Translations under genes and position numbers: made by a program | Assembly (NCBI RefSeq): GCF_041886205.1 | Contig: NZ_CP169029.1 | Length of the DNA stretch: 64,000 bases | Reading direction: 5' to 3' (one strand) | Origin: Escherichia coli | Lineage (GTDB): Bacteria > Pseudomonadota > Gammaproteobacteria > Enterobacterales > Enterobacteriaceae | The notes under the pieces: generated by a model | The model's database searches: none | What the model was told of the DNA's origin: nothing | What the model saw: the letters and a program-made list of their open reading frames with translations, nothing else | Part shown: piece by piece, positions 1 to 38,169 of the stretch | Numbering within the stretch: position 1 is the stretch's first letter | How the letters are laid out: the number at the start of each line of letters is the position of its first letter

Positions 1-3000
1 CCACCGTCAGGCCGCACGATGCCAGCCAGCGGCGGCTTTCCTCACTCACCCGGTCAGCCAGGATTTCACTTTCCAGCCGGTCGAGCATCTGCACCAGCAC
101 CGGCGGGAACACCACACTGCCACCGTCTTCGCCGCCGGACTGCTGAAGGGTATCCGCCAGGCTGCGGCGCTGCGTTTTCGCCTGCTCACCGGTGGCGGTT
201 TCAACCCTGATGAGTGGCGTGAAGCTCCCCGGCTGATAAATCGTCTGGATGCGGGTCCTGTCGTTCTGTATCGTGGTCAGCCGGTCGCCGTCCCAGCCGT
301 ACCAGGTCACTTGCGGTTTCCGTGACAGCGACATCCAGCCCGTCAGGTCCCGTTCACGCCGCCACACCCGTTTTGCCACCCTGCGGCCCAGCGGGTCGTA
401 AAGATAGCGACTTTCGACCAGCGGCTCTGCATATTGTGTCCGCGTGTAGTGCACCAGCCGGTGCTGACTGTCGTAATGGTACCGGTGGGTGCGCTCATCA
501 TCCGTGCGGATAACCCCTTCCGGGATGAGGTCGGTTTTCTCCGTCAGCCTGCCGTGACGGTCATACCGGTAAAGATAGTGCGCGTCACGGGCGATACGGT
601 TATCCGGCCACATGCTGAGGGTGCTGTCCGGGTGCAGCTCCGGGTCGGGCAGGCGGTTACCTGCCGGGTCTGTGGCATACGGGATGCGGATATCCAGATT
701 CGCTGCGGTGGTGTGAACGCTGGTCAGCCTGCCGGTGGTGCTGTAGCTGTAACTCCGGGTCTGGCGCGGGCTGCTGATGCGGATGAGTTCGCCGTTGTCG
801 TTCCAGGTGTAATCGCGGTCATACAGCAGGCTGTTCAGGTGCTGGCTCTGTAACTGCCCGGCAGGGGTGTAAGCGGTGGTGAGTTCATTAACGGCCGAAG
901 CTGCGCAGCGTTTCCCGGTGCAGGCGGTCGCGGGTGTACTCCACCAGCGGTGTGTCGCCGAGTTTCATGCCTGCCAGGTAACCGCTGCCGTAGGTCAGCC
1001 ATTCCACGGCGGGCAGGCTGTCCGGTATACAGCGGTTCGCCAGCCCCTGCGCGTTGTACGCATGTCTGGTCTCATGCTGCCAGAGCAGTGCTTCCGTCTG
1101 CGGGTGATGCACCGTCTGACGTTCACCGGTCAGGCGGCCTTTATCATCATACCCGTAGTGCACCGTCACCCGGTGCCCTTCGCTGATATGGCTGATGTCT
1201 GTCAGCCAGCCGCGTGTCGTCATACTGCCACCGCTCTGCCGGTTTCACCCTTCACGGTGCGGTGCGTGAGGCGGTCTGCTTCGTCATAGTGCCAGTGGGT
1301 GACCAGCCCCTCATCCTCACTGCTGGATGAGTTTGCCGGTCAGGTCGTGGTGATAACGCTGTGTGCGGCCGTCAAAGCCGGTTTCCTGTATCGAGCCGGT
1401 CAAGCACATCGTAACGGAAGGTGGTGTGGCTGCCGTTTTCACTGGTCAGGCGGATGACCCGTCCGGCAGCATCGTATTCCATACTGCGCGTCAAGCCCGC
1501 CCTGCGTGGTACAGACGGCCTTTCCCGCGCGCATCGTACTGTGTCCCGTTTCTGCTGCCGTCCGGGGCAATAACGGCGGTCAGGTCACCGGCGGCGTTGT
1601 ATTCATACCGCGTTTCATGGCCCTGCGTGTCTTTCACCGAGCAGTTAACTGTCCACGGCTGTCGTATGCGCGGTACTGGCTCATGCCCTTCCTCGCGGTG
1701 CACCGCCGTCATCTGACCGAAACGGTCATGGTCATAGCGGGTCGTGGTAACCGGAACAGTCAGTGAAGGTCAGCAACTGACCGTAACGGCTCCACGTCAT
1801 GGTTTTCCGGTACTGCCCGTCGCATCCGTCCGTTGTCGCAGGGAAGCTCACTGTGCGCGGATTATCATAACGGTAGCGGGTGATATCGCCGTCAGGGGCG
1901 AGTCTCCTGAATCAGACGTCCGTATTCATCATATTCCCGGCGCATTTCCAGCCCGTCCTGGCCCGGTAGCTGACGTTAACTGGTTGTGGTCGTTATAGTG
2001 AAACGCCGATGCCCTGCCATCCGGCGTGGTGATGCGCGTGATGAGCGCCGCGACACCACATCCGGGCTGTACTCTGTCTGTCCGGCCTGCGGCATCCGTC
2101 TGTGCCTTAAGCCTGCCCACCGCATCAAACTCGACTCTGCGTGACGCTGCCGTCCGCGTGTTCCTTTTTCACCACCCGCTTCAGCCCGGCTTCGCCCTGC
2201 GTGTGCAGCACTTCACGGCGGTTCAGGCTGTCGGTGATGGTGATGCGGTCCTTCTCATACTGATAGCGTGTAGCTCCAGAGCCTGCCGGGTTGAGCTGCT
2301 TCGTCACCCGCCCGGTCACTCGTCGTACCGGTAGCGGATTTCCGGCCGGCCCGCGTAACGGTGCGCCACCATCCGGCCCCGGTGTTGCATCATCGTAAGT
2401 GAAAGCTGCGCACCTGCGTTCCGCTGCGGTCATACACCGCCGCGCAGTTCGCCGCGCTGGCCGTCCAGCGTGTAGCGCGCCAGCGGCGCGGCAGGCTGAA
2501 TTCTCCGGGTATGCCGGGTCGTGCGTCAGCCACACCGCCGACAAGACGGATGCCGTTGTCCGGGCCGTATTCGGTGTACCCGGGCAGTGTGTCGAGGAAA
2601 AGCGGACGGTTCCGAGACCGGCGGGAAGATAAAGAGTGCGCGCTGCTCGGGCTTGTCCTGCCCGCTGCGCCTGCGTGGTCAGCACCAGCCGGAAGTGACG
2701 CCCGGCACCGTCCGTCACGCCGGTGATTTCGCCGCCGAATGTCACCCGCCGGCCTCGCGGTGGAACGTCAGCGTCCGCCCGAAGCGGTCCGCCAGCCCGG
2801 TCAGCACCCGGTACGGCGGCAGCGCGCGCAGGCAGCACCTCGTCCGCTTCCGGCACCCGCTCACGACCAGCCGAGCAGCCACCACGGCCCCTGCAGCGCT
2901 GTTCGTCGCCAGATAACGATGCGGACTTAAGCGGATATCTTCCGGCAGCGCCTGCCAGAGTGCGCCTAGCCGTGTGACCGTTCATCCAGCTCCGCCACGC

Positions 3001-3441
3001 CGCCGCGCACCAGCCACAGTGACTCGCTGCGGCTGTAGCCGTCCTCGCCGGGAAACAGCGTGCTCAAAGTGACAGGCTCCTGCCGCCGTTGTCAGCTGAG
3101 TATCAGTGCGTCATCGCGCAGCTGTAAGCGGATATCCGCAGGCGCTTTCAGCCGGGGCCGAGGCTCCCCACCGGCGCGGGCGTTCTGGTCCGGTAGCTGC
3201 TGTAGGTGCGGGAGAGGATGAACGGCAGCGGGCGCGGGCAGGGCGATGTCGGTCTCGCCGGGCAGGCACCTTCGCACCGAGCAGCGGATTGACCGGATGG
3301 CCGGACGTCACCCCGCCGGACACGCCGAACAGGCCACGCCGGTGGGCGCGCCGATGCGCACCCGGCTGCCGAACCCTCGGACAATGCCGCGGCCGCCTTG
3401 CGGGTCATGTCGCCCTGACGCGCCGCCGGTTTTCCGCTCAT
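1..3441 (-). pseudogene. Rhs-family YD-repeat protein, N-terminal and core part only; C-terminal toxin domain lies beyond the window start; reading frame broken many times
   Basis: Minus-strand ORF starting at 3441 begins MSGKPAARQGDMT (typical Rhs N-terminus); downstream fragments carry YD-repeat sequence (e.g. YGYDDKGRLTGE, RYEYNAAGDLTAV, ITTPDGR); fragments lie in different frames. Confidence 0.8.
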
Positions 3442-3479
3442 GAATCAATTCCTCTTTCTGCTTATTAATAATGGCTTGT

Positions 3480-5693
3480 CTGTTACTGCACCAGTACCGT
3501 TTTAACAGGTGCACCCGACCCTAGTACTGCTCGCATATCCGGCGTATCCGGGGGGTGAATCTTTCGGCATCAGGCGTCATCCGGTGCGGGATCGTCGAGG
3601 CTGCCACAGTTCCAGTTAATCAACTGGCGCAGTCACCGTTCACCTGCTCGACTCACCCTGCCAGAGTGAATGTGCGTGCCGTTGAGAAAGATTGCTGCCG
3701 TCCTTCGTCAGCACCAGCCTTGCCTCACCACAGCAGAGCTCCAGATGCCACAGGCGAGATAAACTCGCGGTCTGCCCGTGTGTCAGTCCTTCATTCGTCT
3801 TCTACCACCGGTGAAAGGCGGCGTGATTCCCCACATTGACGTCTGTAGCCCAGCCCGACCCTGAACCAGTGATCCGAAGCAGCCCTGCCTGTGAGGACTG
3901 CAACAGACGCCACCGAGGTGTGGTCGTAATGCCGCCTACCGTCGTCTGGTACGCCCACCGTCAGCGCACGAACGAGTCGCCACCGTTTCCACTCTGAACA
4001 GAACCCACGTTGATGATCTGGTTACCGCCCACCGTCTCCACACTGGTTCATCCCCCACTCGTCTGTATCTGATTAACGCCAATGTTCTGGATCTGGTTAT
4101 TGGTACCGGCGATCGCCTGGTTGTTGCCAATGGTCTCGGCATGGTTGTTTATCACATCCGTGGTGCGGTTATTCAGCACCTCAGGTGTTCATCTGTCTTC
4201 TGCGCGTGGATGTAGACCTGTTCTTTCCCTGTCGCATCGTCAAACTTCAGTTCATTAAACCCGCTGCCCGTATACGTTTTCGAGCGGATGGTCATCTGCG
4301 TCTTCGTTCCGGCAGGCTGCCGGGTGTGCGGTTTTCCTGGTGGTAGGTACGCCCCATAATGATCGGCTGGTCCGGATCGCCGTTGAGGAAGTCCACAATC
4401 ACCTCCTGACCCACACGCGGTATCGCCAGGTGGCCAAAACCGGTGCCTGCCCACGCCTGTGCCACACGGATCCAGCACGAACTGTCTTGGTCTGCCGGGT
4501 TATAACGGTCCCAGTTGAACTTCACCCGCACGCGACCATGTTCGTCGCAGAAGATTTCCTCGCCTGCCGGTCCTGTCACGACAGCGCTCTGCGGGCCGTC
4601 AACCAGCGGTTTCAGCAACGGCTGTGGTCGCCATGTTCTGTCTGCCGGGATCACCGCAAAATGGTTATCCAGCGCCGTCCCCGCTCCCTGCCGTCCTGGC
4701 ACCGCCTGTGGCTGTTCGCCGTGCAGTTCACTTGCCACCACCTGCCATTCCCGGTTCAGGTTCGCCTGCGGATGCCCCGTCAGCACAATTCGCCGTCCCG
4801 GCCATATCTCCGGCGAGCGGCTTGTTCCCCGCGCGGTTTCTGCGTTGTTGCGCCAGCCGTCCATCTGCCAGCGGGCAAAGTTCTGCCCGTGGGCACTCTC
4901 GAAACGTCCGGGGTAGTCATACACTTCATACTGCGTGCGCTGGTAGTCCTGGTGCTGGCCTTCCTGTTCAAAACGTCCGGCCCAGCCGGGTCGCTTAAAG
5001 GTGTAGTCTTTGTGTTCACCACGGAAGAAGGGCGGATTTGTGCGCTGTAGCGGAACTGGCTGATGCAGAGGGTGCTCACCTCGGTACGGGTGTTCGGATT
5101 CCAGGGATTTCAAAAGATTCGGGCAGATAACGCGACTGTGTCGCACAGCACCAGGCTCTGGTCGGTACTTTTGTAAGCATGCTCCTCATAAAAGAAGATG
5201 CCTTCCTCCGCCGCCATCCGGCACAGGAAATCGTAATCAGTCTCACCGTACTGGACACAAAACTCACGGGAAGGATGCGGCTCGCTGAACAGCGGACTCC
5301 ATTCGGTCACCCCGTTTTCCTGCAACATCGTGCCGAGGATGCTTTCGATGTCCTCGTTCTGGAAGATACGGAAGTTCTGGCGCAGACCGGCACGCCACAG
5401 CGGCGGGTGCACCTTCATGCTGTACAGCATCTGGTTTTTGTCGTTCTCCCCCAGTTCAAACCAGGTCACCACACCTTCACCCGGCGCTGTACGTCATCGC
5501 CCTGCCATACCGTCAGGTAGGCCATTTTGTCCAGCACCTGCGCAAATTCAAGGGAGAGAAACTGCTGGCTGACCAGAGAGAGATCGAGGGAAAAAAGCGA
5601 AGAGAGTGACTGGTTCAGATGAAAGGAAACCACCGCAAACGCATCCGGTGGCAGGCCGTCCACTTCCAGTGTGAAACGTAATCCGGTTGACAT
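3480..5693 (-). pseudogene. vgrG: VgrG spike protein (TssI), frameshifted; 3' end approximate
   Basis: Fragments at 5466-5693, 5110-5472, 4292-5146 and 4173-4478 (minus) read MSTGLRFTLEVDGLPPDAF..., ...GRTYHQENRTPGS..., MTIRSKTYTGSGFNELKFDDATGKEQVYIHAQK, matching VgrG gp27/gp5 modules; frames differ between fragments. Confidence 0.8.
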
Positions 5694-5850
5694 AGCAACC
5701 TCTGGGGTTAGGAAAAACAGACAGTTCGCTGTTAAAGCGGCTGTGACAGTACAGTGTTACGCTTGCGTTCAGGCACGCTACCGCCGAGTTTTCCGGCAGT
5801 CGCCATCTCCCTTGCTAGTACCCTAACTGACAACCTTTTTTTTATGGTGT

Positions 5851-5890
5851 AATACAAAAACAGCATCCGGCCTGATAGCCGGATGCTGTT
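5851..5890 (-). terminator. Rho-independent terminator immediately downstream of hcp, upstream of vgrG
   Basis: Inverted repeat cagcatccggc / gccggatgctg (5861-5888) with 6 nt loop, followed on the minus strand by a T-run (A-run 5851-5860 on plus). Confidence 0.55.
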
Positions 5891-5898
5891 GGCTTAAC

Positions 5899-6425
5899 TT
5901 ATGCTTCCAGCGGTGCGCGCCAGTCGTCGGCACCGGAGGTGCCAGATTTGACGTGTTCCCATTCAATTTTCGCGGTAGGCCAGTGAAACTTCGAGCAACT
6001 GGGTGAACTCGCGTTTCGCCGGGTCCTGGCAATGCGGCATATGCAGTTCTCATATCGCCAATCGTCGAATCAGTCAGGCGGGGAGCGAGATAGTGCTCCT
6101 GTTTGCCTTCCACAGAGGTACGCCACCAGTGAAGTTCAGCGGTTGGGCAGCATTTCGCCGGAGGCCAGTGCGTTGTACATCAGCGGAACCGCTTTGTTCA
6201 GCGCCACGGTAAAAATGAAAGGCTTGTGAGCGCACGCTGACCCGCAGGCTGACCGGACTGAGGATCGGTCCGCACAGATAACGTTATGCAGGAATTCCTG
6301 CACCAGCATCTCCGTCTTCGTGCCCCTGCACATAGATGTTGCCGACAGAATCAGCGGTAAATGCACCTGCAGTAATATTTCCCTGGGTCTGACCAGTGAT
6401 GGAAGATATAACACGGTGTTGGCAT
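5899..6425 (-). pseudogene. hcp: Hcp (TssD) tube protein, frameshifted
   Basis: Minus-strand translation from 6425 begins MPTPCY... and ends ...PLEA*; internal fragments ...EMLVQEFLHNV...HKPFIFTVALNKAVPLMYNALASGEML and VEGKQEHY...LTDSTIGDMRT match the Hcp family; length 527 nt is not a multiple of 3. Confidence 0.8.
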
Positions 6426-7134
6426 TTGTAAACTCCTTGTTAACGTGGTTAATTACTACTTACAATGACCTGCCGTTAATCCCAGACAGGCAGATGCAGC
6501 TCACTTCACGGAACCGCATCATTTTTCAGTATTTTTTACATACAAACCGAGCTAGAATTTACGGTTGTCGTAAAAACTATTTTTAAAATCATTACATAAC
6601 TCTCATTCAGCAAATAACTTAATAATATATATCTGGATAGCCATACCCAACTGTTCAAAGTCCGTATTGCCTCCATAAAATGGCCAACAGCGCGAACCAA
6701 CTGAAAATAAATATTGTATTTATCCTTTCTGAATTATCATTTTGATAATTTTTGAAGATATTCCTTAAAAATACCCACTTAATCAATCACAGTAAACACA
6801 TGTATAAATAAGCAATCATTAGATTAGCTCATGTTTAATGAAATTATTATATACTTCAATAAGTTACATAAAAAATCTATATTTAAATTATTGCCATAAT
6901 ACACCTGACGCGAATTGCACAGGTTCACACAATCTATTTAACGCTTGCAGAATACCCCTCTTTACCATCGATAAAAAGTCCTTTTCTTATTTATTTTGAA
7001 GCGTAAAATGCGGGGTGATGAAGGAGCTGGTGATTTTATTTTCACCGCCATTAGGGCGGCATTGCCGATATTTTTTTGCGGTACAAATATGCCGTGTTCA
7101 TGGCCTGTACGAGATAACATGACGGATTACTTTT
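6426..7134. promoter_or_regulatory. AT-rich divergent intergenic region between hcp-vgrG-rhs (minus) and tssB operon (plus); presumed promoters
   Basis: ~700 bp non-coding, visibly AT-rich compared with flanking genes; sits between divergently oriented T6SS genes; no specific promoter elements verified. Confidence 0.35.
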
Positions 7135-7646
7135 ATGAGCAAAAAATTTGAAGGCAGCGTCGCGCCTCGCGAGCGTATTAACATATCGTATGTCCCAAAA
7201 ACAGATGGCCAGACGGCTGAAGCGGAACTTCCGCTTAACATGCTCGTTGTCGGCGATACCGGAAATACGCAGGAAAACATCCCCACTGGATGAACGTCAG
7301 GCAGTTTCCGTTAACAAGCACAATTTCGGTGCAGTGATGGCTGAAGCAGCCATTGGCCTCAATTTTACTGTCCCCGCCACGCCTGAAGGGAAGCACAACA
7401 GACGATGAACTGAATGTGGCGCTGAATATCAAATCACTGGAAGCTGACTCTTTCACCAGATAGCGTGGCCCGGCAGGTTCCGGGAAGCGAGTAGTAATCG
7501 CTGGAACTGCGTGAAGCACTGACTGCACTGAAGGGGCTCGGCTGGGTAAACCTTCCGGCATTCCGTACCCAGCTCCAGGCATTGCTGGAAAATGAAGAGT
7601 CCCGCGAGCAGTTGCTCAAAGAAATCGGTCTGGTGAGCAATAAATA
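7135..7646 (+). pseudogene. tssB: TssB (VipA) small sheath subunit, frameshifted
   Basis: Translation from ATG 7135: MSKKFEGSVAPRERINISYVPKTDGQTAEAELPLNMLVVGDTGNTQENIP then stop; continues in another frame as LDERQAVSVNKHNFGAVMAEAAIGLNF; TssB-family N-terminal signature. Confidence 0.75.
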
Positions 7647-7958
7647 ACCACCACGATTCCATTAAACAGGGTTATCCAGGACATGACGGCACACAAAAAT
7701 ATCTCCGGGACATACCACCTCTCTGTTGCAGACATTCTGCAGGTGCTTTACCAGGTATGTTTCAGCCCGTCCGTTGAAATCAACCAGGACTGGTGTGGCT
7801 GCGCTGATTACAACACTGGATCGCCGTATCAGTGATCTATTGGATGAGATTATCCATTTTTGTGAGTTTCAGCAGAGCGCGTCGCACTGGCAGCGCGTAC
7901 TTCACTGATGGCGAAAGGCCGGTTCCAGAAACACAGCTAAAACAGAAGGATTTTCAGT

Positions 7959-9461
7959 ATGTCTTTACAGGAAGAGGAACTCTGTTCCCAGTCATGCCGG
8001 GCAGCCTGGAGCAGGCATCGTCGCTGCTTGATCAAATCATGGCACAGACCCGTATTCAGGCCCGGTTCGGAAGGTTATGACGTTGCCCGCCAGGGTGTGA
8101 CAGCCTTTATTGCCAGCATCCTGCAATCCACTGCATCTGCCGAACCGGTCAATAAACTGGCCGTGGACAGCATGATTGCAGATATTGATGAACGCATCAG
8201 CCGCCAGATGGATGTCATCATCCAGGGCGCGCCTGCCTTTCAGCAGGTCGAATCGTTCTGGCGCTCACTGAAAACCATGGTGGATCGCGTTGATTTCCGT
8301 GAAAACATCAAGGTCAACGTGCTTCATGTCACCAAAGCAGGGAACTTCTGGAAGACTTTGAGTTTGCGCCAGAAATTATTCAGTCCGGATTTGATCAAGC
8401 ACGTTTATTCGTCCGGATTCGGACAGTTTGGCGGTGAACCCATCGCTGCCGTGCTGGGCGCTTATGAGTTCAAAAATACCGCGCCTGACATGAGACTGTC
8501 GGCAAGACGCCAGTGCCGTGGGCGCAACGGCGCACGCACCGTTCCTGTCCTCCGTTTCCCCGGCGGAGTTTATGGGGCTGAACTCGTGGACCGAACTGCC
8601 TAATATCAAAGATCTTTATGCCATCTTTGAAGGTCCGGCCTACACCAAATGGCGCGCCCTGGCGTGACTCGGAAGATTCGCGCTGGATTCAGGGCTTACG
8701 GCACCCCGTTCTTCCTGCTTCGCCAGCCCTGGTCACCAGCAGATAACCCTGTTAAGAAGCTTTAACTATCACGAAGATGTCAGCCAGAACCACGAAGATT
8801 ATCTGTGGGGTAATACGGCCTGGATGCTGGCATGCAATATCGCAGACAGTTTTGCCGAATACCGCTGGTGTCCAAACATTATCGGCCCGCAAAGCGGCGG
8901 CGCGGTGAAAGATCTGCCGGTGCATCTGTTCGAAACGATGGGGCAGATTCAGGCCAAAATCCCAACCGAGGTGCTGGTCACCGATCGCCGCGAATTTGAA
9001 CTGGCTGAAGAGGGTTTTATCACCCTGACCATGCGTAAAGACTCTGATAATGCAGCCTTTTTCTCTGCAAACTCGGTACAAAAACCTGAAGCACTTTCCG
9101 GGAAAAGATGCAGAAACCAACTATAAGCTGGGTCTGCAGTCTCCCTGATCTCTTCATCATCAACCGGTTAGCGCACTACATCAAGGTGTTGCAGCGTGAA
9201 CATACTGGGGTCATGGAAAGAAAGGAGCGACTTAGAGAGGGCAGCTCAGACACCCTGGATCCGTCAGTATGTTGCCGACCAGGAAAACCCGCCGGACGGA
9301 CGTGCGCAGCCCGCAAACCTCTGCGCGCAGCCAGAGTTGAGGTTATGGATGTGGAAGGCGAACCCGGCTGGTACCAGGTTGCGCTAAGCGTGAGGCCTCA
9401 TTTTAAATTTATGGGGGCAAATTTTGAGCTTTCCCTGGTCGGCCGGTTAGACAGGGAGTAA
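7959..9461 (+). pseudogene. tssC: TssC (VipB) large sheath subunit, several frameshifts
   Basis: Fragments SLLDQIMAQTRIQ, EGYDVARQGVTAFIASIL, PVNKLAVDSMIADIDERISRQMDVIIQGAPAFQQVESFWRSLK and C-terminal ARVEVMDVEGEPGWYQVALSVRPHFKFMGANFELSLVGRLDRE match TssC; pieces are in three frames. Confidence 0.8.
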
Positions 9462-9466
9462 CACAC

Positions 9467-9893
9467 CATGAGAGTACCGGATCGGGAAAAGAACCACAGG
9501 TTCTCTTTTTTGAGCGTATGGAAGCCTCTTCGGCCAGAAACCGGGCAGGGAGGCAGTATTCATTCGCTCAGGCAATCCATTCGCCAGAACCTGACGAAAC
9601 ATTCTGAGTACCCGGTCCGGTAGTTGCCGGGGTGCGCCTGAGCTGGGCATTGATGAACCGGAAGGGGCTGAAAACTTCCGCGAATCCATGAGTCGGGCCA
9701 TCGAGCAATGTATAGAACGCTATGAACCCCGGATCTCACACGCTGAAGTGCAGGCAGTGGTTTCATCCGCCTCCAGCCCGCTGGATACGGCTGCTTCATA
9801 TTACAGCCTGGGTGACATTTCAGTCTGAAACGCATGAGGTGCTTGAATTTGATATGGCACCGAATGCAGCCAGCATTACCGGGTGGACTGACA
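9467..9893 (+). pseudogene. tssE: TssE baseplate (gp25-like) protein, frameshifted; assignment from position and size
   Basis: ~140-codon gene slot between tssC and tssF starting ATG 9467 (MRVPDREKNHRFSFLSVWKPL...); frame is interrupted; identity based mainly on synteny. Confidence 0.45.
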
Positions 9894-9894
9894 A

Positions 9895-11701
9895 ATGGAA
9901 TTTGAAGAACGCTATTTCCGGGAAGAACTCGATTACCTGCGCCAGCTGAGCAAGCTGCTCGGCAATGGATCTATCTGGCCCGCTTCCTGGCCGAAAAAGA
10001 TGCGGATCCGGATATCCAGAACGCCTGCTGGAAGGGGTGGGGCGTCTTTCTTAACCGGCAATCTCCGCCAGAAAATTGAGGATGAATTCCCAGAACTGAC
10101 GCACGGGCTCAATCAAAGATGCTATGGCCTGATCACCTGCGTCCGGTTCCTGGCAATGACCCTTGATCTATATACGCCGGATATGGATAAGTCTTCTGTA
10201 CCGGTGTTAATCCCCTCGTAGACTCAGCAGTTGAACATACCAACGCCGGGGAAATCAGAGTTGATGAAGTGCTGCCCTCTGATGCTAAAAAGGAGGAGCC
10301 GCCTCCCCTGTACCTTCAGCCCTCTGCCGGGATATCAGGCTGCTGGCCCGTTCGCCTGGAGCAGATTGACTGCAGTACGACCCGTAATGGTGTTATCATA
10401 CATCACCCTTTCGGTTCGCACCGGAAACGGACTTCCGCACGCTGGATCTGAACAAACTTCGCTTCTGCCGCTCGGCAATGACGACAACTATACCCGTGAC
10501 CAGCTTTATTTATGGTTCTGCGAATACTTGCAGGGTGCCGACCTGACTGTGGGTGAACAGCATATTCGCCTGCCTGAGTTTATGCTAAAAGCTGTCGGTT
10601 TTGAGCCGCAGGACGCCATGCTGGCCCTGGCCTGAAAAACGTCCACAGCGGCTACCGGATCCTTCAGGAGTATTTCCGTTACCCCGATGCGTTTCTCTTT
10701 TTTGATCTTTGTGGTTGTCCGGCTTTGCCTGACGGATTGCAGGCGGAATTCTTTACCCTGCAACTGCGTTTTTCGCGCCCTTTGCCCGTGGACATCCGGC
10801 TGCGCCGCGATTCCCTGCGCCTGTATCGCGCACCTGCCATTAATTTATTTATCCACCATGCAGAAGCCATCACGCTGGACAAACCGGCGGGCAAGACTAT
10901 CCGCTGGTTCCCAGCCGCCATTACCCACAACATTACGATGTATTTTCCGTTAACAGTGTGGTGAGCCAGGTCCAGGATATGTTCAGGAAAAAAGATCTGG
11001 GGCGTCCTGTTTCGACGCAGGCCGCGCGCCAGTGGCCAGCCTTTGAAAGTTTCAGCCATCAGATGGAATACAGCCGGAAGCGGGAAGTGGTGTACTGGCA
11101 ATCACCGGACCAAAACATCCCTGTTCCATCGCGGCTTTGATCATACCCTTGCCTTTATACATGCTGATGGCAGTTATCCGTCAGACGAATCTTCTCGCTC
11201 GAGTAAATGAAGTGGTTTCGGTATCGCTGACCTGTACCAACCGTGAGCTTCCGTCACAAATACGTTCCGGGCGATATCACCGGCACAACCGGTAAAAATG
11301 CGGCTGTTGCTTCATTTCGCAACATTACCCGCCCGACGCAACCACTCTGGCCGGTCATTGACTGGCAGCCTGCACTGGTCCCTGCTCTCCGCCATGAACC
11401 TGAATTATCTGTCATTACTGGATACGGACGCGCTGAAGCAGCTCATCGCCAGTCTTTGATCGCCACGCAATCCATCATCCGCAGACGGCACGGCTGTCAC
11501 AACAAAAGCTGGATGCCATTGAGCGTCTGGAGACCCGCCCCGTTGATCGCCTGTTTACGGGTATTCCCGTCCGGGGACTTGGCCTCCACGCTGTATCTGC
11601 ACCCGGAGCCGTTTGTCTGTGAAGGGAAATGTATCTGCTCGGTACGGTGCTTTCGCATTTTCTGTCGCTGTACGCCAGCGTTAACTCATTCCACATGCTG
11701 A
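9895..11701 (+). pseudogene. tssF: TssF baseplate protein, several frameshifts
   Basis: N-terminus MEFEERYFREELDYLRQL is the conserved TssF start; ~600-codon span fits TssF; ORF pieces at 9895-10221, 10231-10635, 10725-10964, 11243-11701 in different frames. Confidence 0.7.
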
Positions 11702-11729
11702 CCGTTGTGAACACAGAAAGCCAGGAGAC

Positions 11730-12817
11730 ATGGAAATGGACGGAAAGAATCGGGCAGCATCCTCTTATCTGAGTCCGGGAAATCCCCCGGCAGATAAAGA
11801 GCAGAATGATCCGCTGGCACAGGTTTTCCATAATGCCTGCTCTTACAATTTTTTTGCGATGGCGGGCTCGTTGCACCGCCTGGCAAAGGGTGAAAGGGGA
11901 CGCCAGAATTATCCCTGCGTGACGATCCGGCACAGGAAACCCTGCGTTTCAGCGCCGATGCCAGCCTTGCCTTCCCGTGCAGTGATATCAGTGCACTGAA
12001 ACGGGATACGTCAGGGGCATTCAGGATGACCACCACCTTTATGGGGTTACAGGGGAGCCAGTCGCCTCTCCCCGGTTATTACCTCGATCACCTGGCCTGG
12101 AAAGCGGTACATGAACAAAGTCCGGTAGGTGATTTTCTGGATATGTTCAGCCACCGCCTGACCCAGTTTGTCTGGCATATCTGGCGTAAGTACCGCTATC
12201 ACATCAGTTTTCGTAACGGCGGTGTGGATGCGTTCTCGCAGCGCATGTACTCCCTTGTCGGGCTGGGCCACCGCCAGCTTCGCGATAAGCTGGCGATTAA
12301 TCACAGCAAAATGCTGGCGTATTCCGGGATCCTGGCAAATCCGGGATGATCCCCGGAAATAATCTGTGGCCTGGTGTCCCACTGCTTTGATTTGTCAGAA
12401 GTGACGCTGCAAAACTGGCAACGTCGCAAGGTGGATATTGAACCGGATCAGCAAAATAGTCTGGGGAGCTATTCTCTTAAAAATGGCGAAAAACTGGCGG
12501 GAAGATCGGTACTGGGCAACTTTGTTCTGGGTACACGAGTGCCCGATCTCAGCGGAAAATTCCAGCTCAGTATTACCAGCCTGACCCGAAAACAGTTCCT
12601 CTCTTTCTGCCGTCTGGCGAAAACTTCCTGCCACTGACGATGTTCGTGTCCTTCATCCTGCGCGATCAGCTTGCCTGGGACTTACATCTGGGGCTGGCGC
12701 CGGAGCAGGTGGGCGCAATGCGCCTGGGCGATAACAAAAGTGCGCTGCTGGGCTGGACCAGCTTCCTCGGCACACCGGAAGAACGACCCTCAGTCACCAT
12801 CAGGGTACGGTCGTAAA
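11730..12817 (+). pseudogene. tssG: TssG baseplate protein, frameshifted
   Basis: Follows tssF; N-terminal fragment contains LAQVFHNACSYNFF (TssG-like YNFFQ motif region); ~360-codon slot; pieces at 11730-11999, 12026-12349, 12374-12637 in different frames. Confidence 0.55.
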
Positions 12818-25238: not shown

Positions 25239-26593
25239 ATGGATAGTAACGGACTGACACAAACTATCGTTACCGGCAGTGACCCGCGCGGGGCTGCCGG
25301 AATTCAGTGCCATCCGCGAGGAAATAAACAAAGCCAGCCACCCGTCACAGCCTGAGCTGAACTGGAAACTGGTGGAGTCGCTGGCACTGGCGATTTTTAA
25401 AGCCAACGGTGTGGATTTACACACCGCCACCTACTAGACGCTTGCCCGGACACGGACACAGGGACTGGCGGGATTCTGCGAAGGTGCGGAACTGCTGGCG
25501 GCAATGGTAAGCCACGACTGGGATAAGTTCTGGCCGCAGGGCGGCCCGGCGCGTACTGAAACGCCGGACTGGTTTAACTCCCGAACCGGCAATATTCTGC
25601 GTCAGCAAATCTCCTTTGCGGAATCCGACCTACCACTGATCTACCGCACAGAGCGGGCATTGCAGCTTATCTGCGATAAGCTCCAGCAGGTGGAACTGAA
25701 GCGCGTTCCGCGCGTGGAGAATCTGCTCTATATTTATGCAGAACACGCGTAAACGGCTTGAACCCCAGACTGAAGAGTAACACTGAGAACGCCGCACAGA
25801 CCACGGTCAGAACGCTGATTTATGCCCCGGAAACACAGGCATCTTCCACACCAGAAGCGGTAGTGCCTCCCCTGCCCGGCCTGCCTGAGATGAAAGTGGA
25901 AGTGCGCAGTCTGACAGAGAATCCCCCACAGGCCAGTGTGATAAAGCAAGGCAGTACGGTAAGAGGGTTTATCGCAGGGATCGCCTGTTCAGTGGCTGTC
26001 GCCTCAGCATTGTGGTGGTGGCAGGTCTATCCGGTGCAGCAGCAACTGTTACAGGTTAACGACACCGCTCAGGGCGCAGCAACGGTGTGGATGGCCTCAC
26101 CTGAACTCGAAAACTATGAGCGCAGGCTGCAACAACTTCTTGATACCTCCCGGTACAGCCGCTGGAAACCGGGATGCAGATGATGCGTGTTGCCGACAGT
26201 CGCTGGCCGGAAAGCCTGCAACAGCAACAGGCCTCGACACAATGGAATGAGGCACTCAAAACCCGCGCACAGAGTAGCCCGCAGTTGCGTGGCTGGTTGC
26301 AGACCCGCCAGGACTTACATGCTTTTGCAGATCTAGTGATGCAGCGCGAGAAAGAGGGACTAACCCTTTCCTATATCAAAAATGTCATCTGGCAGGCGGA
26401 GCGGGGACTGGGGCAGGAAACACCCGTTGAGTCTCTGTTGACGCAGTACCAGGATGCCCGTGCGCAGAAGCAGAATACAGATGCGCTGGAAAAACAAATT
26501 AATGAGCGACTCGAAGGCGTGTTAAGCCGCTGGCTGCTGCTGAAGAATAACGTCATGCCAGAGGCGGCAACCGGTACCACGGCCGAAAAATAA
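25239..26593 (+). pseudogene. Second ImpA_N-domain T6SS accessory protein (VasL/TagA-like), frameshifted
   Basis: Alternate-frame translation near 25.3 kb gives LPEFSAIREEINKASHPSQPELNWKLVESLALAIFKANGVDLHTATY (ImpA_N signature); followed by a hydrophobic segment (FIAGIACSVAVASALWWW) and a C-terminal region; fragments in three frames. Confidence 0.5.
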
Positions 26594-26616
26594 TTATTTA
26601 ATTAAAGGAGATTATC

Positions 26617-27099
26617 ATGGCAAATATAAGTTATTTATCTTTGAGTGGAGAGACACAAGGGCTGATTTCAGCAGGTTGCTCAACGCTTGATTCTGTCGGA
26701 AACAAAGCGCAGCCAGAACATAAAGATCGAGATCATGGTTTATGCGTTAATGCATTCCATCTCAAGAAGTCAAAATGTCAATCATCATGAATTAATTATC
26801 ACCAAACCGGTTGATAAATCCTCACCATTGCTGGCAAAAGCACTTAGTGACAATGAAAAAATGGCAATATGTGAATTTATACTCTACCGAACCAGTAAAG
26901 CGGGTATTTACCAGCCTTATTATAAAATAAATCTGTCAAAAGCCCGAATATCAAGTATTGATTTTGTCACACCGCATGCTGTCCTGGAAAAGAACTGGAA
27001 CCACAGGAGAGAATTGCCTTTATTTATGAAGATATTTCCTGGGAGCATACGTTAGCCGGTACGAATGCAATGAGTAAATGGCAGGATCGTGTACAGTAA
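26617..27099 (+). pseudogene. hcp: Second Hcp (TssD) copy, two apparent frameshifts
   Basis: Strong RBS (aaggag) then MANISYLSLSGETQGLISAGCSTLDSVGNKAQPEH; continues in other frames as ...SISRSQNVNHHELIITKPVDKSSPLLAKALSDNEKMAICEFILYRTSKAG... and ...RIAFIYEDISWEHTLAGTNAMSKWQDRVQ*, all matching Hcp. Confidence 0.8.
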
Positions 27100-27142
27100 C
27101 TTACTGTAATAACATAATAAATTACTATTGCGGAGAGATAAA

Positions 27143-28039
27143 ATGGCTGGTTTAAGGAATAACAACAACACACAGAATGCACAGTGGGCTGATTATGTGG
27201 GTGACATTCTTCGGGGGGCTCAGCCGATAAACCAGCTAGTACCTCAGCACCCTTATCTTAACGACGTCCCACTCATTGATGAGTTAAGGCATCAGAACAC
27301 TCATCATGTTATTCTCTTGACACTTGATGTTGCAAAAAAAATACTCAGCCCAATAACATCATTTGATTACATTCATTTTATCACTACACATCCTTCAGGT
27401 ATAAAAGATACACTCGCCTGGTTAGTTAACGCGGGTAAATTAATGACTGAGTTTGATGACAATGGGAAAATTATATTTAACCTTAATGCCTTAAAGTATA
27501 CAAAAGCAAGTTACTTTGAAATACTTGGAGAGAAATATATAAAAATCACAACATCCAGCCCCTGGCTTTTAGAAAAGCTCGGTAAATATATTTTCTCTTC
27601 ACGAGCGCCTCAAGTTCTGGAACTCGCTATTGGCTGGCGAGGAGCTTTATCTGAATCAATAAAAGGAGTTAAGTTCTGTATCTGGTTTTCAGTAGCCTGG
27701 AGAACCATAGAATTTATTATGAGTTCAGAGCGAGATCTGGTTAATTTTCTTGGCGATTTTTCAATGGATGTGGCCAAAGCAGTTATAGCCGGTGGTGTTG
27801 CAACCGCTATTGGAAGCCTGGCTTCTTTTGCCTGTGTTAGCTTTGGCTTTCCAGTAATTCTTGTCGGAGGAGCAATTTTACTGACAGGGATAGTGTGTAC
27901 AGTTGTTTTAAATGAAATCGATGCTCAATGCCATTTATCAGAAAAATTAAAATATGCAATTAGAGATGGACTAAAACGGCAACAGGAACTTGATAAATGG
28001 AAAAGGGAAAACATGACTCCATTTATGTATGTTCTTTAA
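27143..28039 (+). CDS. Hypothetical protein with C-terminal glycine-zipper transmembrane hairpin; candidate Hcp-linked membrane-targeting effector
   Basis: Intact ORF (frame opens at 27128; ATG 27143 has a better RBS ggagag); AT-rich; C-terminal hydrophobic helices AVIAGGVATAIGSLASFACVSF and FPVILVGGAILLTGIVCTVVL; immediately downstream of hcp2. Confidence 0.6.
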   Translation: MAGLRNNNNTQNAQWADYVGDILRGAQPINQLVPQHPYLNDVPLIDELRHQNTHHVILLTLDVAKKILSPITSFDYIHFITTHPSGIKDTLAWLVNAGKLMTEFDDNGKIIFNLNALKYTKASYFEILGEKYIKITTSSPWLLEKLGKYIFSSRAPQVLELAIGWRGALSESIKGVKFCIWFSVAWRTIEFIMSSERDLVNFLGDFSMDVAKAVIAGGVATAIGSLASFACVSFGFPVILVGGAILLTGIVCTVVLNEIDAQCHLSEKLKYAIRDGLKRQQELDKWKRENMTPFMYVL

Positions 28040-28067
28040 CACTCCACCCGTGATATGAGGATTAACC

Positions 28068-28433
28068 ATGCGTTTACATGTTAAATTAAAAGAGTTTCTT
28101 TCGATGTTTTTTATGGCCATATTATTTTTCCCTGCATTCAATGCTTCTTTGTTTTTTACCGGAGTTAAACCTCTATATTCAATAATAAAATGCTCCACGG
28201 AAATATTTTATGATTGGAGAATGTTGATTCTGTGCTTTGGTTTCATGTCGTTTTCCTTTTTAAATATTCATGTAATTTTACTTACGATAATAAAATCATT
28301 CTTAATCAAAAAAACGAAGGTAGTCAATTTCGCCACAGACATAAACAATACAGCTAACTCTTATATTTTTACTAATAGCTATCGTAATAGCACCTTTAAT
28401 AGCTCCTTTTGTCACAGGATATGTCAATGCTAA
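28068..28433 (+). CDS. Small hypothetical inner-membrane protein (121 aa); candidate immunity protein
   Basis: Intact ORF with RBS (gagga) and two hydrophobic segments (FFMAILFFPAFNASLFF; MLILCFGFMSFSFLNIHVILLTII); directly follows the putative effector gene. Confidence 0.5.
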   Translation: MRLHVKLKEFLSMFFMAILFFPAFNASLFFTGVKPLYSIIKCSTEIFYDWRMLILCFGFMSFSFLNIHVILLTIIKSFLIKKTKVVNFATDINNTANSYIFTNSYRNSTFNSSFCHRICQC

Positions 28434-28703
28434 TTATCACCCCTGCGGTAATAATGCGGGGATTTTCCCAGCGAGCAATCTGATATTAAAAATGGCATGA
28501 AATGTAGTAACTGAATATATTTCTCGCAAGGAAGATTCAGCAGTTAAATAACTAAATATTCTAAAACAAACAGTTTTTAACTCCGGTATTCCATGTCCTT
28601 TCTTGCACTGTCTTTGTCAAGAAAGATTTCTTATGCAAAGAATTTTGTATTATTGCCGCCCAGAGATTCCTGGCGGCAGATAGAATCTATTATTGATAGC
28701 GAG

Positions 28704-29486
28704 TTAACCAAATCTTTTCACCATCGCTTTATAGGTCTTTTGCTTAAGTTGCATGATTTGCTGCTCTGTCATATCAGTCGTACTGGCTTCATTCTTGTCG
28801 GGCAATGGTGGAAGCACTTTATATTCATACTTCACCGGCGACCAGGTACGTAGCCCACTCACCTGTTGCCACATCCACCAGCGTGAAACGTACCAGGTAG
28901 CGCAGGGAGATAGCGTCGGTGAGTTTTTCATTTTTATAGTCGGACCATACTGTTGATTTCAGCGCAGAGTCATATTTTCCTGTCTGCAACGTATCCTGGA
29001 AAACAATAATCGCTTTCTGATGCCCTTTTGCAGCCCACAAAACGCAGTGCCTGCATCCAGTTCATATTCTCAGCACTGGCAACATCCTCGTTCTCATTTT
29101 TATCTTTGTTTTTGTTACAAGTCAGAGGCTTTTGCCTGTCCGGGATACTCAGAAAAGAACGTGGAAACAGTATAATATTTTCGCATCTCCTCCTGCATAA
29201 TGGTTTCCGGTGCGCGGTTGCCGGATTGAACAAGTATTACAGGAGAATTAAGGGGAACGCGGAACTCATCTCCATCAAGCGCAGCTTGAATATCCTCTTC
29301 GGATACGGCCAGAGTGGTTTCATTACCGAATAAATCTTTGTCTGTCAGTTGCTGGGGAGTGTTTTTATTAATATTACTTTGTGTGACTTGAGCTTTTTTC
29401 TTCTTTTCATCAATAGAAGATTCAGAGGCACATCCTGCAAGCAGCGAGAATAACACACATATGCAACAAAGCTTTTTTGAATTCAT
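28704..29486 (-). pseudogene. yafT: Lipoprotein YafT-like gene adjacent to aspV, frameshifted
   Basis: Minus-strand ORF from 29486 begins [21 protein letters not shown] (lipobox); continues in other frames down to 28704 (~261 codons total); position next to tRNA-Asp as for K-12 yafT. Confidence 0.65.
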
Positions 29487-29752
29487 AATTGGACACTCCC
29501 TCGCCTGTCATAATCATGGTAATGTTTAGCTAACGATTTTTAATTATATACTCCACTTGAATCAGAACAAACAAAAATAACAGTATATATAAATTCATTA
29601 AATCAATAGAAAAATGAAAATCATAACATTCAAATATATTTAAATTGAATGATTCGATAGTATGATTAAATATTAATGATATGGTCTACCATATGTGATT
29701 AACACATTTACAGCATAACAAAACCATAGACCGAAGAAATAGCGGGATTTAA

Positions 29753-29789
29753 ATGCAAAAAAAACCGCAAAATTAAAAATCTTGCGGTT
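29753..29789 (-). terminator. Rho-independent terminator downstream of aspV
   Basis: Inverted repeat aaccgcaa / ttgcggtt (29763-29789) followed on the minus strand by a T-run. Confidence 0.6.
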
Positions 29790-29816
29790 CTCTGAACTCA
29801 TTTTCATGAGTGAATC

Positions 29817-29893
29817 TGGCGGAACGGACGGGACTCGAACCCGCGACCCCCTGCGTGACAGGCAGGTATTCTAACCGACTGAACTACCGCTCC
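29817..29893 (-). tRNA. aspV: tRNA-Asp (GUC)
   Basis: 77 nt; reverse complement reads GGAGCGGTAGTTCAGTCGGTTAGAATACCTGCCTGTCACGCAGGGGGTCGCGGGTTCGAGTCCCGTCCGTTCCGCCA. Confidence 0.97.
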
Positions 29894-30025
29894 GCGTTGT
29901 GTTCCGTTGGGAACGAGGCGAATATTACGGATTGCCTCGTCCTTCGTCAATGGTTTTTCTCATCTTTTGAATCATTTGCTGCAAAAATCGCCCAAGTCGC
30001 TATTTTTATCGCCTTTTACATGTAT

Positions 30026-30757
30026 TTATGCCCGCCAGAGGCAGCTTCCGCCTTTCTTCTGCACCAGATCGAGACGGGCTTCATGTGCTGCAAGCTCGTC
30101 ATCTGTCGCAAAAACAACGCGTAACTTACTTGCCTGACGTACAATGCGCTGAATTGTTGCTTCACCTTGTTGCTGCTGTGTCTCTCCTTCCATCGCAAAA
30201 GCCATCGACGTTTGACCACCGGTCATCGCCAGATAAACTTCCGCAAGGATCTGGGCATCGAGTAATGCCCCGTGCAGCGTTCGTTTACTGTTATCTATTT
30301 CGTAGCGGGCACATAACGCATCGAGGCTGTTGCGTTTACCGGGAAACATTTTCCTCGCCACCGCAAGGCTATCGGTGACCTTACAGAAGGTATTAGTCTT
30401 CGGAATATCGCGCTTAAGCAACGAGAACTCGTAGTCCATAAAGCCGATATCGAACGCTGCGTTATGGATCACCAACTCCGCGCCGCGGATATAGTCCATG
30501 AACTCATCGGCTACTTCGGCAAACGTGGGCTTATCGAGCAAAAATTCATCGGCAATACCATGTACGCCAAAGGCTTCCGGATCCACCAGCCGATCGGGTT
30601 TGAGATAAACATGGAAGTTATTGCCCGTCAGGCGACGGTTCACCACTTCAACGGCCCCAATCTCAATGATCTTGTGGCCTTCATAGTGCGCACCAATCTG
30701 GTTCATACCGGTGGTTTCGGTATCGAGAACGATCTGGCGTGTAATTGCAGTGCTCAT
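30026..30757 (-). CDS. dnaQ: DNA polymerase III epsilon subunit (3'-5' proofreading exonuclease)
   Basis: 243 aa from [19 protein letters not shown]...; DEDDh exonuclease motifs; divergent from rnhA as in E. coli. Confidence 0.95.
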
Positions 30758-30821
30758 AGCGGTCATTTATGTCAGACTTGTCATTTTACAGTTCGATTCA
30801 ATTACAGGAAGTCTACCAGAG

Positions 30822-31289
30822 ATGCTTAAACAGGTAGAAATTTTCACCGATGGTTCGTGTCTGGGTAATCCTGGACCTGGGGGTTACGGCGCTATTTTAC
30901 GCTATCGCGGACGCGAGAAAACCTTTAGCGCAGGCTACACCCGCACCACCAACAACCGTATGGAGTTGATGGCCGCTATTGTCGCGCTGGAGGCGTTAAA
31001 AGAACATTGCGAAGTCATTTTGAGTACCGACAGCCAGTATGTCCGCCAGGGTATCACCCAGTGGATCCATAACTGGAAAAAACGTGGCTGGAAAACAGCA
31101 GACAAAAAACCAGTAAAAAATGTCGATCTCTGGCAACGTCTTGATGCTGCATTGGGGCAGCATCAAATCAAATGGGAATGGGTTAAAGGCCATGCCGGAC
31201 ACCCGGAAAACGAACGCTGTGATGAACTGGCTCGTGCCGCGGCGATGAATCCCACACTGGAAGATACGGGCTACCAAGTCGAAGTTTAA
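30822..31289 (+). CDS. rnhA: Ribonuclease HI
   Basis: 155 aa from [28 protein letters not shown]...; the ORF track's upstream extension overlaps dnaQ and is rejected. Confidence 0.95.
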
Positions 31290-32008: not shown

Positions 32009-32038
32009 CACAACCTTCCGTTTCACACTGAGAGGTAA

Positions 32039-32797
<759 letters not shown>

Positions 32798-32868
32798 TAA
32801 AACTTTCTTGTCATCGGCTCCGTTCGCCGTTATGATCGGTCGTCTTTTAAGCAACTATTGACACACAC

Positions 32869-34227: not shown

Positions 34228-34241
34228 CAAACCAGATAATA

Positions 34242-34274
34242 AAAAGGCACCGATTCCCCCGGTGCCTTTTTTAT
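34242..34274. terminator. Bidirectional rho-independent terminator between convergent mltD and yafE
   Basis: Stem ggcaccg / cggtgcc with 7 nt loop, flanked by A-run upstream and T-run downstream. Confidence 0.7.
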
Positions 34275-35045: not shown

Positions 35046-35122
35046 TGCGCTGTCCTTTTGTTGTTTGAGTATAAAAGGGCAGCGCCAAACGTTGGTCTGC
35101 CCTGTGGCAGACCTGACATACC

Positions 35123-35974
<852 letters not shown>

Positions 35975-38117: not shown

Positions 38118-38169
38118 ACCGAATTCTTTTACAACCACCGGTTTTATGACCGGCTTAATGCTTAATTTG

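What the first reader, a model, noticed from the sequence alone, without database searches (positions are those of the whole stretch)
5851..5890. Strong intrinsic terminator between hcp and vgrG
An 11 bp GC-rich stem (cagcatccggc/gccggatgctg) followed by a T-run on the minus strand lies immediately after the hcp stop and before vgrG-rhs. It would terminate most hcp transcripts and leave vgrG/rhs expressed by read-through, a plausible stoichiometry control (tube protein in excess over spike).
Basis: seen in the sequence. Interest (0 to 1): 0.3.

Follow-up and report, generated by a model that had tools for sequence, protein, structure and literature searches.

The report
Known hcp terminator hairpin before vgrG
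This is the transcription-terminator hairpin that follows the type VI secretion tube gene hcp in many E. coli; the identical sequence was characterised experimentally in EHEC in 2026, so the finding is real but ordinary and already known.

Summary
The hairpin is real and better than described. It has 14 consecutive pairs (minus strand 5890..5859, loop AUCA, about -25 kcal/mol, z = -8.6 against shuffles). A tail UUUGUAUUAC (5858..5849) follows it. It starts 8 nt after the hcp stop and ends 155 nt before the vgrG ATG.

The locus is the tRNA-Asp-linked E. coli T6SS. From the stop codon through the tail, the sequence is identical to the EDL933 hcp3-vgrG3 spacer and to 1,829 of 5,426 complete E. 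coli genomes, one copy each.

That element is "h3R region I" of Vazquez-Lopez et al. 2026 (PMC13141884). There, no joint hcp3-vgrG3 transcript was detected. Deleting region I raised read-through and cut hcp3 mRNA to 6%.

My comparison adds support. In 24 Enterobacteriaceae sequences, 8 of 14 stem pairs show compensatory changes. Among 80 loci encoding close Hcp relatives, 55 have a hairpin plus U-tract within 75 nt of the stop.

The terminator call is supported. "vgrG expressed by read-through" is only partly supported.

Two caveats apply. In this window hcp, vgrG and tssB-tssF carry dense small insertions, probably an assembly artefact, so no stoichiometry is being set as the sequence stands. 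A roughly 95-nt non-coding block just downstream (5833..5739) is under purifying selection and remains unexplained.

The parts
5859..5890 (-). Terminator hairpin: 14-pair stem AACAGCAUCCGGCU/GGCCGGAUGCUGUU with loop AUCA
   Evidence: dG -25.2 kcal/mol, z -8.2. Identical in EDL933 and in 1,829 E. coli genomes. Compensatory changes at 8 of 14 pairs.
5849..5858 (-). U-rich tail UUUGUAUUAC; with the last two stem U's it gives five consecutive U's
   Evidence: The T columns just after the stem are invariant or at least 90% conserved in 24 sequences.
5891..5898 (-). 8-nt spacer GUUAAGCC between the hcp stop and the hairpin
5899..6425 (-). hcp (T6SS tube protein gene). Here it is 527 nt with 8 extra bases, and the frame is lost from codon 8.
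   Evidence: Alignment to intact E. coli hcp, translation, annotation of the orthologous genes.
3520..5693 (-). vgrG (T6SS spike gene). ATG at 5693, preceded by the Shine-Dalgarno sequence AGAGG; the frame is lost after about codon 75.
   Evidence: Annotation of the orthologues.
1..3441 (-). rhs core gene downstream of vgrG; it runs off the window start and is frame-broken
5739..5833 (-). Conserved non-coding block between the terminator and vgrG. It corresponds, by position and inference, to h3R regions II-III of the EHEC paper. Function unknown.
   Evidence: Alignments. nhmmer found it once per locus in 25 places, counting the window. Core identity is 86%, against 58% at hcp third codon positions. 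No Rfam match.
6426..7134 (.). AT-rich divergent promoter region between hcp and tssB, the source of the transcripts that the hairpin terminates
   Evidence: GC content 0.457 in 6001-8000. Gene layout. The bidirectional promoter is described in PMC13141884.

Best explanation
The element is the Rho-independent terminator at the 3' end of hcp in the tRNA-Asp-linked E. coli T6SS. It has the same sequence as region I of the 'h3R' spacer studied in EHEC EDL933. Transcripts start at the divergent hcp/tssB promoter. As RNA polymerase clears the hcp stop codon, the 14-pair GC-rich hairpin forms in the nascent RNA, directly ahead of a U-rich stretch, and most complexes release there (inferred from the anatomy; supported indirectly by published RT-PCR and reporter data). 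The same hairpin then sits at the 3' end of the short hcp mRNA and shields it from 3'-to-5' exonucleases, which raises Hcp output (shown in EHEC: hcp3 mRNA falls to 6% without region I). The net effect is abundant hcp message that is insulated from vgrG-rhs. Expression of vgrG-rhs depends on a small amount of read-through, on separate control exerted by the conserved block downstream, or on both. In this window the hairpin is intact, but hcp, vgrG, rhs and tssB-tssF are frame-broken, so as sequenced the element serves no working system.
For: Anatomy: 14 pairs, 4-nt loop, five consecutive U's, starting 8 nt after the stop, on the sense strand only. Not chance: z = -8.6, and among the most stable candidates in 64 kb. 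Same locus and identical sequence as the EDL933 hcp3-vgrG3 spacer. Published tests on that sequence: no joint transcript by RT-PCR; deleting region I raises junction RNA, doubles downstream mCherry, halves upstream GFP/Hcp3 and lowers hcp3 mRNA to 6%. Evolution: in 24 Enterobacteriaceae sequences 93% of cells pair, against 35-58% in slid registers; 8 of 14 pairs carry compensatory changes; 0 of 500 shuffles reach the observed covariation score; the U-tract columns are near-invariant. Generality: 55 of 80 loci encoding close Hcp relatives have a hairpin plus U-tract (dG <= -10) within 75 nt of the stop. The controls gave 1 of 160 inside hcp, 9 of 240 shuffles and 9 of 80 on the antisense strand.
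Against: No 3'-end mapping or in vitro termination assay exists for this sequence. The EHEC evidence comes from deletions, end-point RT-PCR and reporters. Deleting region I alone gave only a modest rise in read-through and little VgrG3; regions I and II together were needed for a clear effect. In Yersinia pseudotuberculosis T6SS4, mutating the stem-loop after hcp4 lowered only hcp4 mRNA and left downstream transcripts unchanged, so it was read as a protective loop and not a terminator. A few relatives keep the hairpin but lack the U-tract (L020, L023). In this window the flanking genes are not intact.
Confidence: 0.85

Rival explanations
1. Pure mRNA-decay barrier. The hairpin does not stop RNA polymerase to any useful degree. 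A long hcp-vgrG-rhs transcript is cleaved, and the hairpin only protects the hcp fragment from 3' exonucleases, as proposed for hcp4 in Yersinia T6SS4.
For: Deleting region I cuts hcp3 mRNA to 6% and Hcp3 to about 50%. The Yersinia stem-loop mutant lowers only hcp4 mRNA. Some relatives have the hairpin without a U-tract (L020, L023).
Against: A run of five U's directly follows the stem, and those columns are conserved across genera; a decay barrier does not need this. Deleting region I raises junction RNA and doubles the downstream reporter. No joint transcript is detectable in wild type. The two roles are compatible, so this rival only competes as the exclusive explanation.
Confidence: 0.1
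2. One reading: a leaky attenuator. vgrG-rhs has no promoter of its own and is expressed only by the fraction of hcp transcripts that read through, which fixes a high Hcp:VgrG ratio.
For: In some relatives only about 20 nt separate the U-tract from the vgrG start, leaving no room for a downstream promoter (L034, L028). No sigma-70 consensus promoter (at least 9 of 12 matches) is found on the sense strand of the spacer, in the window or in EDL933. Faint read-through RNA is seen when the unit is driven from a strong promoter.
Against: In wild-type EHEC, vgrG3 RNA was amplified while the hcp3-vgrG3 junction was not, which points to separate transcription. Inducing the hcp promoter raised Hcp3 but gave no detectable VgrG3. 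The EHEC paper cites a V. cholerae study for separate transcription of vgrG from hcp. A conserved roughly 95-nt block lies between the terminator and vgrG, consistent with independent control.
Confidence: 0.25
3. DNA-level palindrome: a 14-bp inverted repeat that serves as the operator for a dimeric regulator and not as an RNA structure.
For: A perfect inverted repeat lies in a regulatory spacer. The EHEC paper predicts several transcription-factor sites in the spacer.
Against: Across genera the arms change sequence while keeping complementarity, including G-U pairs that exist only in the sense-strand RNA. Loop length and sequence vary freely. The structure is always followed by a T-run on the hcp strand.
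Confidence: 0.03
4. A REP-like repeated palindrome, a mobile-element remnant, or a chance palindrome.
For: The arm GCCGGATG resembles the start of E. coli REP sequences (from memory). A REP-like hairpin occurs elsewhere in the window at 53396-53428.
Against: There is exactly one copy per genome in 2,193 genomes, always at the hcp 3' end. No other paired copy exists in the window. The position is syntenic across genera. Shuffles give z = -8.6.
Confidence: 0.01

Closest known systems
h3R region I, the hcp3 3'-UTR hairpin/terminator of EHEC O157:H7 EDL933 (Vazquez-Lopez et al., Microbiol Spectr 2026, PMC13141884)
   Same: Same locus: hcp-vgrG-rhs arm of the tRNA-Asp-linked T6SS. Identical sequence from the hcp stop through the hairpin and U-tail. 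The published description matches: a 32-base hairpin with 14 pairs starting about 8 nt after the stop.
   Different: The window differs from EDL933 just downstream of the tail, with several substitutions and 1-nt and 2-nt deletions at 5842 and 5820. Its hcp and vgrG are frame-broken.
Canonical E. coli intrinsic (Rho-independent) terminators
   Same: A GC-rich stem of 14 pairs, a short loop and an immediately adjacent U-tract, placed just after a stop codon.
   Different: Nothing unusual. The stem is at the long, stable end of the usual range. The upstream A-tract is only AA, so the element is unidirectional.
Stem-loop after hcp4 in Yersinia pseudotuberculosis T6SS4 (PMC12503267)
   Same: A GC-rich hairpin directly after the tube-protein gene. 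Its loss lowers hcp mRNA, giving an excess of hcp transcript over neighbouring T6SS genes.
   Different: The Yersinia element was judged not to terminate transcription: downstream transcripts were unchanged when it was mutated. It lies inside a polycistronic operon before tssE4. The E. coli element has a conserved U-tract, and its deletion raises downstream expression.
Separate transcription of vgrG from hcp in Vibrio cholerae orphan clusters (Zhang et al. 2021, as cited in PMC13141884)
   Same: hcp and the following vgrG are distinct transcription units despite being adjacent.
   Different: A different organism and sequence. I did not read that paper. In my survey the Photobacterium and Aeromonas loci have unrelated hairpins at the same position.

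Membership tests
Intrinsic (Rho-independent) terminator | Stable GC-rich stem with a short loop in the nascent RNA | tested here: met
   14 pairs (8 G-C), 4-nt loop, dG -25.2 kcal/mol, z = -8.2 to -8.6.
Intrinsic (Rho-independent) terminator | U-rich tract immediately 3' of the stem | tested here: met
   Five consecutive U's, then GUAUU. The T columns after the stem are invariant or at least 90% conserved in 24 sequences.
Intrinsic (Rho-independent) terminator | Sense-strand position just downstream of a stop codon | tested here: met
   Starts 8 nt after the hcp TAA on the hcp strand. The plus-strand version has a poor tail.
Intrinsic (Rho-independent) terminator | Structure, not sequence, maintained in orthologous positions | tested here: met
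   93% of cells paired, against 35-58% in slid registers. 8 of 14 pairs have changes on both sides. 0 of 500 shuffles reach the covariation score.
Intrinsic (Rho-independent) terminator | RNA 3' ends at the U-tract; factor-independent release in vitro | not testable with these tools
   Only indirect published data exist for the identical sequence: RT-PCR, deletions and reporters. No 3'-end mapping has been reported.
h3R region I of EHEC EDL933 | Same genomic locus, between hcp3 and vgrG3 of the tRNA-Asp-linked T6SS | tested here: met
   The gene order rhs-vgrG-hcp / tssB...tssM...tRNA-Asp-dnaQ matches.
h3R region I of EHEC EDL933 | Same sequence | tested here: met
   Identical from the stop codon through the tail.
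h3R region I of EHEC EDL933 | Flanked by intact hcp and vgrG, so that it can regulate them | tested here: not met
   hcp carries 8 extra bases with the frame lost at codon 8. vgrG loses frame after codon 75. This may be an assembly artefact.
3'-protective (decay-barrier) hairpin without termination | Loss lowers the upstream mRNA but leaves downstream expression unchanged | not testable with these tools
   Published EHEC data: the upstream mRNA falls to 6%, but downstream RNA and reporter rise. It therefore acts as a stabiliser, but not only as one.
3'-protective (decay-barrier) hairpin without termination | No requirement for, or conservation of, a U-tract | tested here: not met
   The U-tract is present and conserved.
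REP/BIME repeated palindromes | Many dispersed copies per genome | tested here: not met
   One place per genome in 2,193 genomes. No second paired copy in the window.
Small protein gene (annotated 45-aa ORF WP_001297813 / EDL933_0238, starting in the 3' arm) | Reading frame and amino-acid sequence conserved | tested here: not met
   The window shifts frame over about 13 codons through -1 and -2 indels. Other genera have indels of 1, 2, 4 and 8 nt inside it.

The most novel reading that the evidence does not exclude
The hairpin may be only the first half of a conserved two-part module that travels with hcp in Enterobacteriaceae. The second half is a roughly 95-nt non-coding block (window 5833..5739). 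That block is under stronger constraint than hcp synonymous sites (86% against 58% identity). It has no Rfam family. It persists even where the gene after it is not vgrG (L031, L019). If the block is a new cis-regulatory RNA leader or an operator/promoter gating whatever cargo gene follows hcp, then the module as a whole, and not read-through alone, sets the tube-to-spike/effector ratio.
Probability: 0.35. Interest if true: 0.4.

Novelty: already known. Interest (0 to 1): 0.15.

Why it matters
A T6SS tube needs far more Hcp than VgrG per firing. A terminator that also stabilises hcp mRNA is a simple way to obtain that excess and to put the spike and Rhs toxin genes under separate control. This has now been shown for the identical sequence in EHEC, so the window adds no new principle. 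My analysis adds comparative support that the EHEC paper lacks: compensatory evolution of the stem across genera, and a hairpin plus U-tract after hcp in about two thirds of loci encoding close Hcp relatives across Gammaproteobacteria. It also flags a strongly conserved non-coding block downstream, which is the likelier place for anything new.

Tried and rejected
- Rfam (E-value mode) on window 4500-7500 and on the EDL933 spacer: nothing meaningful. The best hit had E = 0.48 and only 14 bits.
- A sigma-70 promoter for vgrG in the spacer: no site with at least 9 of 12 matches on the sense strand, in the window or in EDL933. The promoter predicted in the paper could not be corroborated.
- The annotated 45-aa ORF across the hairpin, and a shorter internal ORF: rejected because of frame-shifting indels between relatives.
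- REP-like or repeated element: rejected, single copy.
- RNA structure for the conserved downstream block: the RNAalifold consensus is weak (-9.5 kcal/mol, 1 compensatory pair). My hand-built model (helix GUUACG/CGUAAC plus hairpin GCCGG/UCGGC) pairs in 86% of cells but is no better than column shuffles. The result is inconclusive because the sequence is too conserved.
- A CsrA-type leader (GGA motifs): considered but not tested. The EHEC authors report no CsrA effect on vgrG3.
- Finding the source genome: housekeeping DNA at 30000-37000 is 100% identical to six E. coli genomes. The one I inspected, VE-T9, carries a different T6SS island at tRNA-Asp. No genome shares the window's insertions.
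- Two Python calls failed on a file-name assumption.

Full report
**Observation.** Reading the window and the consensus scan confirm a hairpin on the minus strand at 5890..5859. The stem is AACAGCAUCCGGCU / GGCCGGAUGCUGUU and the loop is AUCA. The tail UUUGUAUUAC (5858..5849) follows directly, so with the last two stem U's there are five U's in a row.

The hairpin folds at -25.2 to -25.8 kcal/mol. Dinucleotide shuffles average -7 to -8, giving z = -8.2 to -8.6, and none of 200 shuffles folds as well. It heads the terminator-like list for window 1-12000. In a scan of the whole window it is the second most stable hairpin-plus-U-tract candidate on the minus strand, and the only compact, uninterrupted one of that stability on either strand. 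On the plus strand the same hairpin is followed by GGCUUAACUU, so it is a one-way signal.

**Context.** The hcp stop TAA is at 5901..5899, 8 nt before the hairpin. The vgrG ATG is at 5693, preceded by the Shine-Dalgarno sequence AGAGG, 155 nt after the tail. The region matches the E. coli T6SS next to tRNA-Asp. The order is rhs, vgrG and hcp on one strand, and tssB, tssC, tssE, tssF, tssG ... tssM on the other, followed by tRNA-Asp and dnaQ.

**It is a described element.** A full-text search found Vazquez-Lopez et al. 2026 (PMC13141884). That paper analyses the hcp3-vgrG3 spacer of EHEC EDL933 and names it h3R. I fetched EDL933 and aligned it. From the stop codon through the hairpin and tail, the window and EDL933 are identical.

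The paper describes a 32-base hairpin with 14 pairs, starting about 8 nt after the stop, as "region I". Its results are as follows:
- RT-PCR detects hcp3 and vgrG3 separately, but no product spanning both.
- Deleting region I raises the junction RNA. Deleting regions I and II raises it more.
- Hcp3 protein halves and hcp3 mRNA falls to 6% without region I.
- In a gfp-h3R-mCherry reporter, deleting region I halves GFP and doubles mCherry.

The authors conclude that region I both terminates transcription and stabilises hcp3 mRNA, and that vgrG3 is a separate unit with a predicted promoter of its own. The 53-nt stretch of stop, hairpin and tail is at least 99% identical in 1,829 of 5,426 complete E. 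coli genomes. It occurs once per genome and always at the hcp 3' end.

**Comparative evidence, not in the paper.** I fetched 80 loci encoding Hcp proteins 81-100% identical to the E. coli one, from Enterobacteriaceae out to Dickeya, Pectobacterium, Providencia, Photobacterium, Aeromonas and Halomonas. In 55 of 80, a hairpin with dG <= -10 plus a U-tract lies within 75 nt after the stop. The controls were 1 of 160 segments inside hcp, 9 of 240 shuffles and 9 of 80 on the antisense strand.

In Enterobacteriaceae the hairpins are homologous, and the arms change while staying complementary. In a 24-sequence alignment, 93% of cells pair, against 35-58% when the 3' arm is slid by 1-3 columns. Eight of 14 pairs carry changes on both sides, and no column shuffle out of 500 reaches the observed covariation score. 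RNAalifold recovers the same helix. The T columns after the stem are invariant or nearly so. A pure stability hairpin would not require that.

**Mechanism and rivals.** The best reading is an intrinsic terminator that doubles as a 3' protective hairpin.

The main rival is a protective hairpin without real termination. This comes from Yersinia T6SS4, where mutating the stem-loop after hcp4 lowered only hcp4 mRNA. A few relatives here also have the hairpin without a U-tract (L020, L023). For the E. coli sequence, however, the conserved U-tract and the rise in downstream expression on deletion argue for termination as well.

It is supported by relatives where the vgrG start lies only about 20 nt after the U-tract (L034, L028). 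It is also consistent with the absence of a consensus sigma-70 promoter in the spacer. In EHEC, however, vgrG3 RNA exists without detectable junction RNA, and inducing the hcp promoter does not yield VgrG3. Read-through alone is therefore not the story there.

An operator palindrome, a REP-like repeat and the annotated 45-aa ORF were each rejected.

**Caveat specific to this window.** hcp is 527 nt instead of 519, with 8 extra bases, and loses frame at codon 8. vgrG loses frame after codon 75. Between 5971 and 11869 there are 84 insertion events of 1-4 nt and only 6 deletions relative to E. coli O111. The inserted bases have an even composition, and only half sit next to an identical base. Substitutions in hcp-tssF are not biased to third codon positions, and rhs and vgrG carry another 81 insertion events.

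The pattern stops sharply near 11870, and tssG onwards is clean. No complete E. coli genome shares these insertions. In contrast, housekeeping DNA at 30000-37000 is 100% identical to six genomes. Natural gene decay is deletion-biased, so I favour an unpolished stretch of the assembly, though this is unproven. Either way, the hairpin itself is untouched.

**Side observation.** Aligning the whole spacer across 15 loci shows a roughly 95-nt block (window 5833..5739) that is more conserved than the hairpin sequence. A profile of it hits once per locus in 25 places, counting the window. Its core is 86% identical between species, while hcp third codon positions are 58% identical. Indels of 1, 2, 4 and 8 nt exclude coding.

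The block has no Rfam match. RNA-structure tests are inconclusive because so little varies. It persists where the downstream gene is not vgrG (L031, L019). By its position between the terminator and the vgrG start, it appears to fall within h3R regions II-III, which repress vgrG3 in EHEC. What it binds or does is unknown.

**Verdict.** The read-through claim is only partly supported. The element is already described for an identical sequence, so interest is low. The downstream conserved block is the only part that might hold something new.

Noticed in passing
window 5739-5833 (minus strand): A roughly 95-nt non-coding block between the hcp terminator and vgrG is conserved across Enterobacteriaceae genera: core identity 86%, against 58% at hcp third codon positions. 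It has no Rfam family, is not coding, and shows no demonstrable covariation. It also follows hcp where the next gene is not vgrG (L031, L019).
   Followed up: partly
window 1-11870: About 165 small insertion events (1-4 nt, even base composition) and few deletions pepper rhs, vgrG, hcp, tssB, tssC, tssE and tssF, breaking every frame. The pattern ends abruptly before tssG and is found in none of 5,426 complete E. coli genomes. It looks like an unpolished assembly stretch and not natural decay.
   Followed up: partly
window 5731-5868 (minus strand): RefSeq annotates a 45-aa hypothetical protein (WP_001297813 / EDL933_0238) whose ATG lies inside the 3' arm of the hairpin. Indels between strains and genera shift its frame, so it is almost certainly a spurious call.
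   Followed up: yes
window 30000-37000 versus locus L004: Housekeeping genes next to tRNA-Asp are 100% identical to six E. coli genomes. The one I inspected (VE-T9) carries a different T6SS type at the same tRNA-Asp site, so the island has been swapped between very close lineages.
   Followed up: partly
L020 and L023 (Enterobacter MAG, Rahnella laticis), first 60 nt after the hcp stop: These relatives keep a strong hairpin right after hcp but lack the U-tract, and vgrG starts about 80 nt after the stop. This suggests the hairpin (stability) is the more universal part and the U-tract (termination) is optional.
   Followed up: partly
window 26000-30000: A low-GC stretch (0.38-0.43) lies at the tRNA-Asp end of the T6SS island (tRNA-Asp at 29817-29893). 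It includes a 60-base net insertion relative to E. coli O111 near 28000-29000.
   Followed up: no
window 38041-43500: An rRNA operon lies on the minus strand (tRNA-Ile and tRNA-Ala at 41469-41663, a second tRNA-Asp at 38041-38117), with strongly negative GC skew.
   Followed up: no
window 53396-53428 (plus strand): A REP-like palindrome GCCGGAUGCGACG...CGUCUUAUCCGGC. It is unrelated to the hcp hairpin, although it shares the GCCGGATG motif.
   Followed up: no
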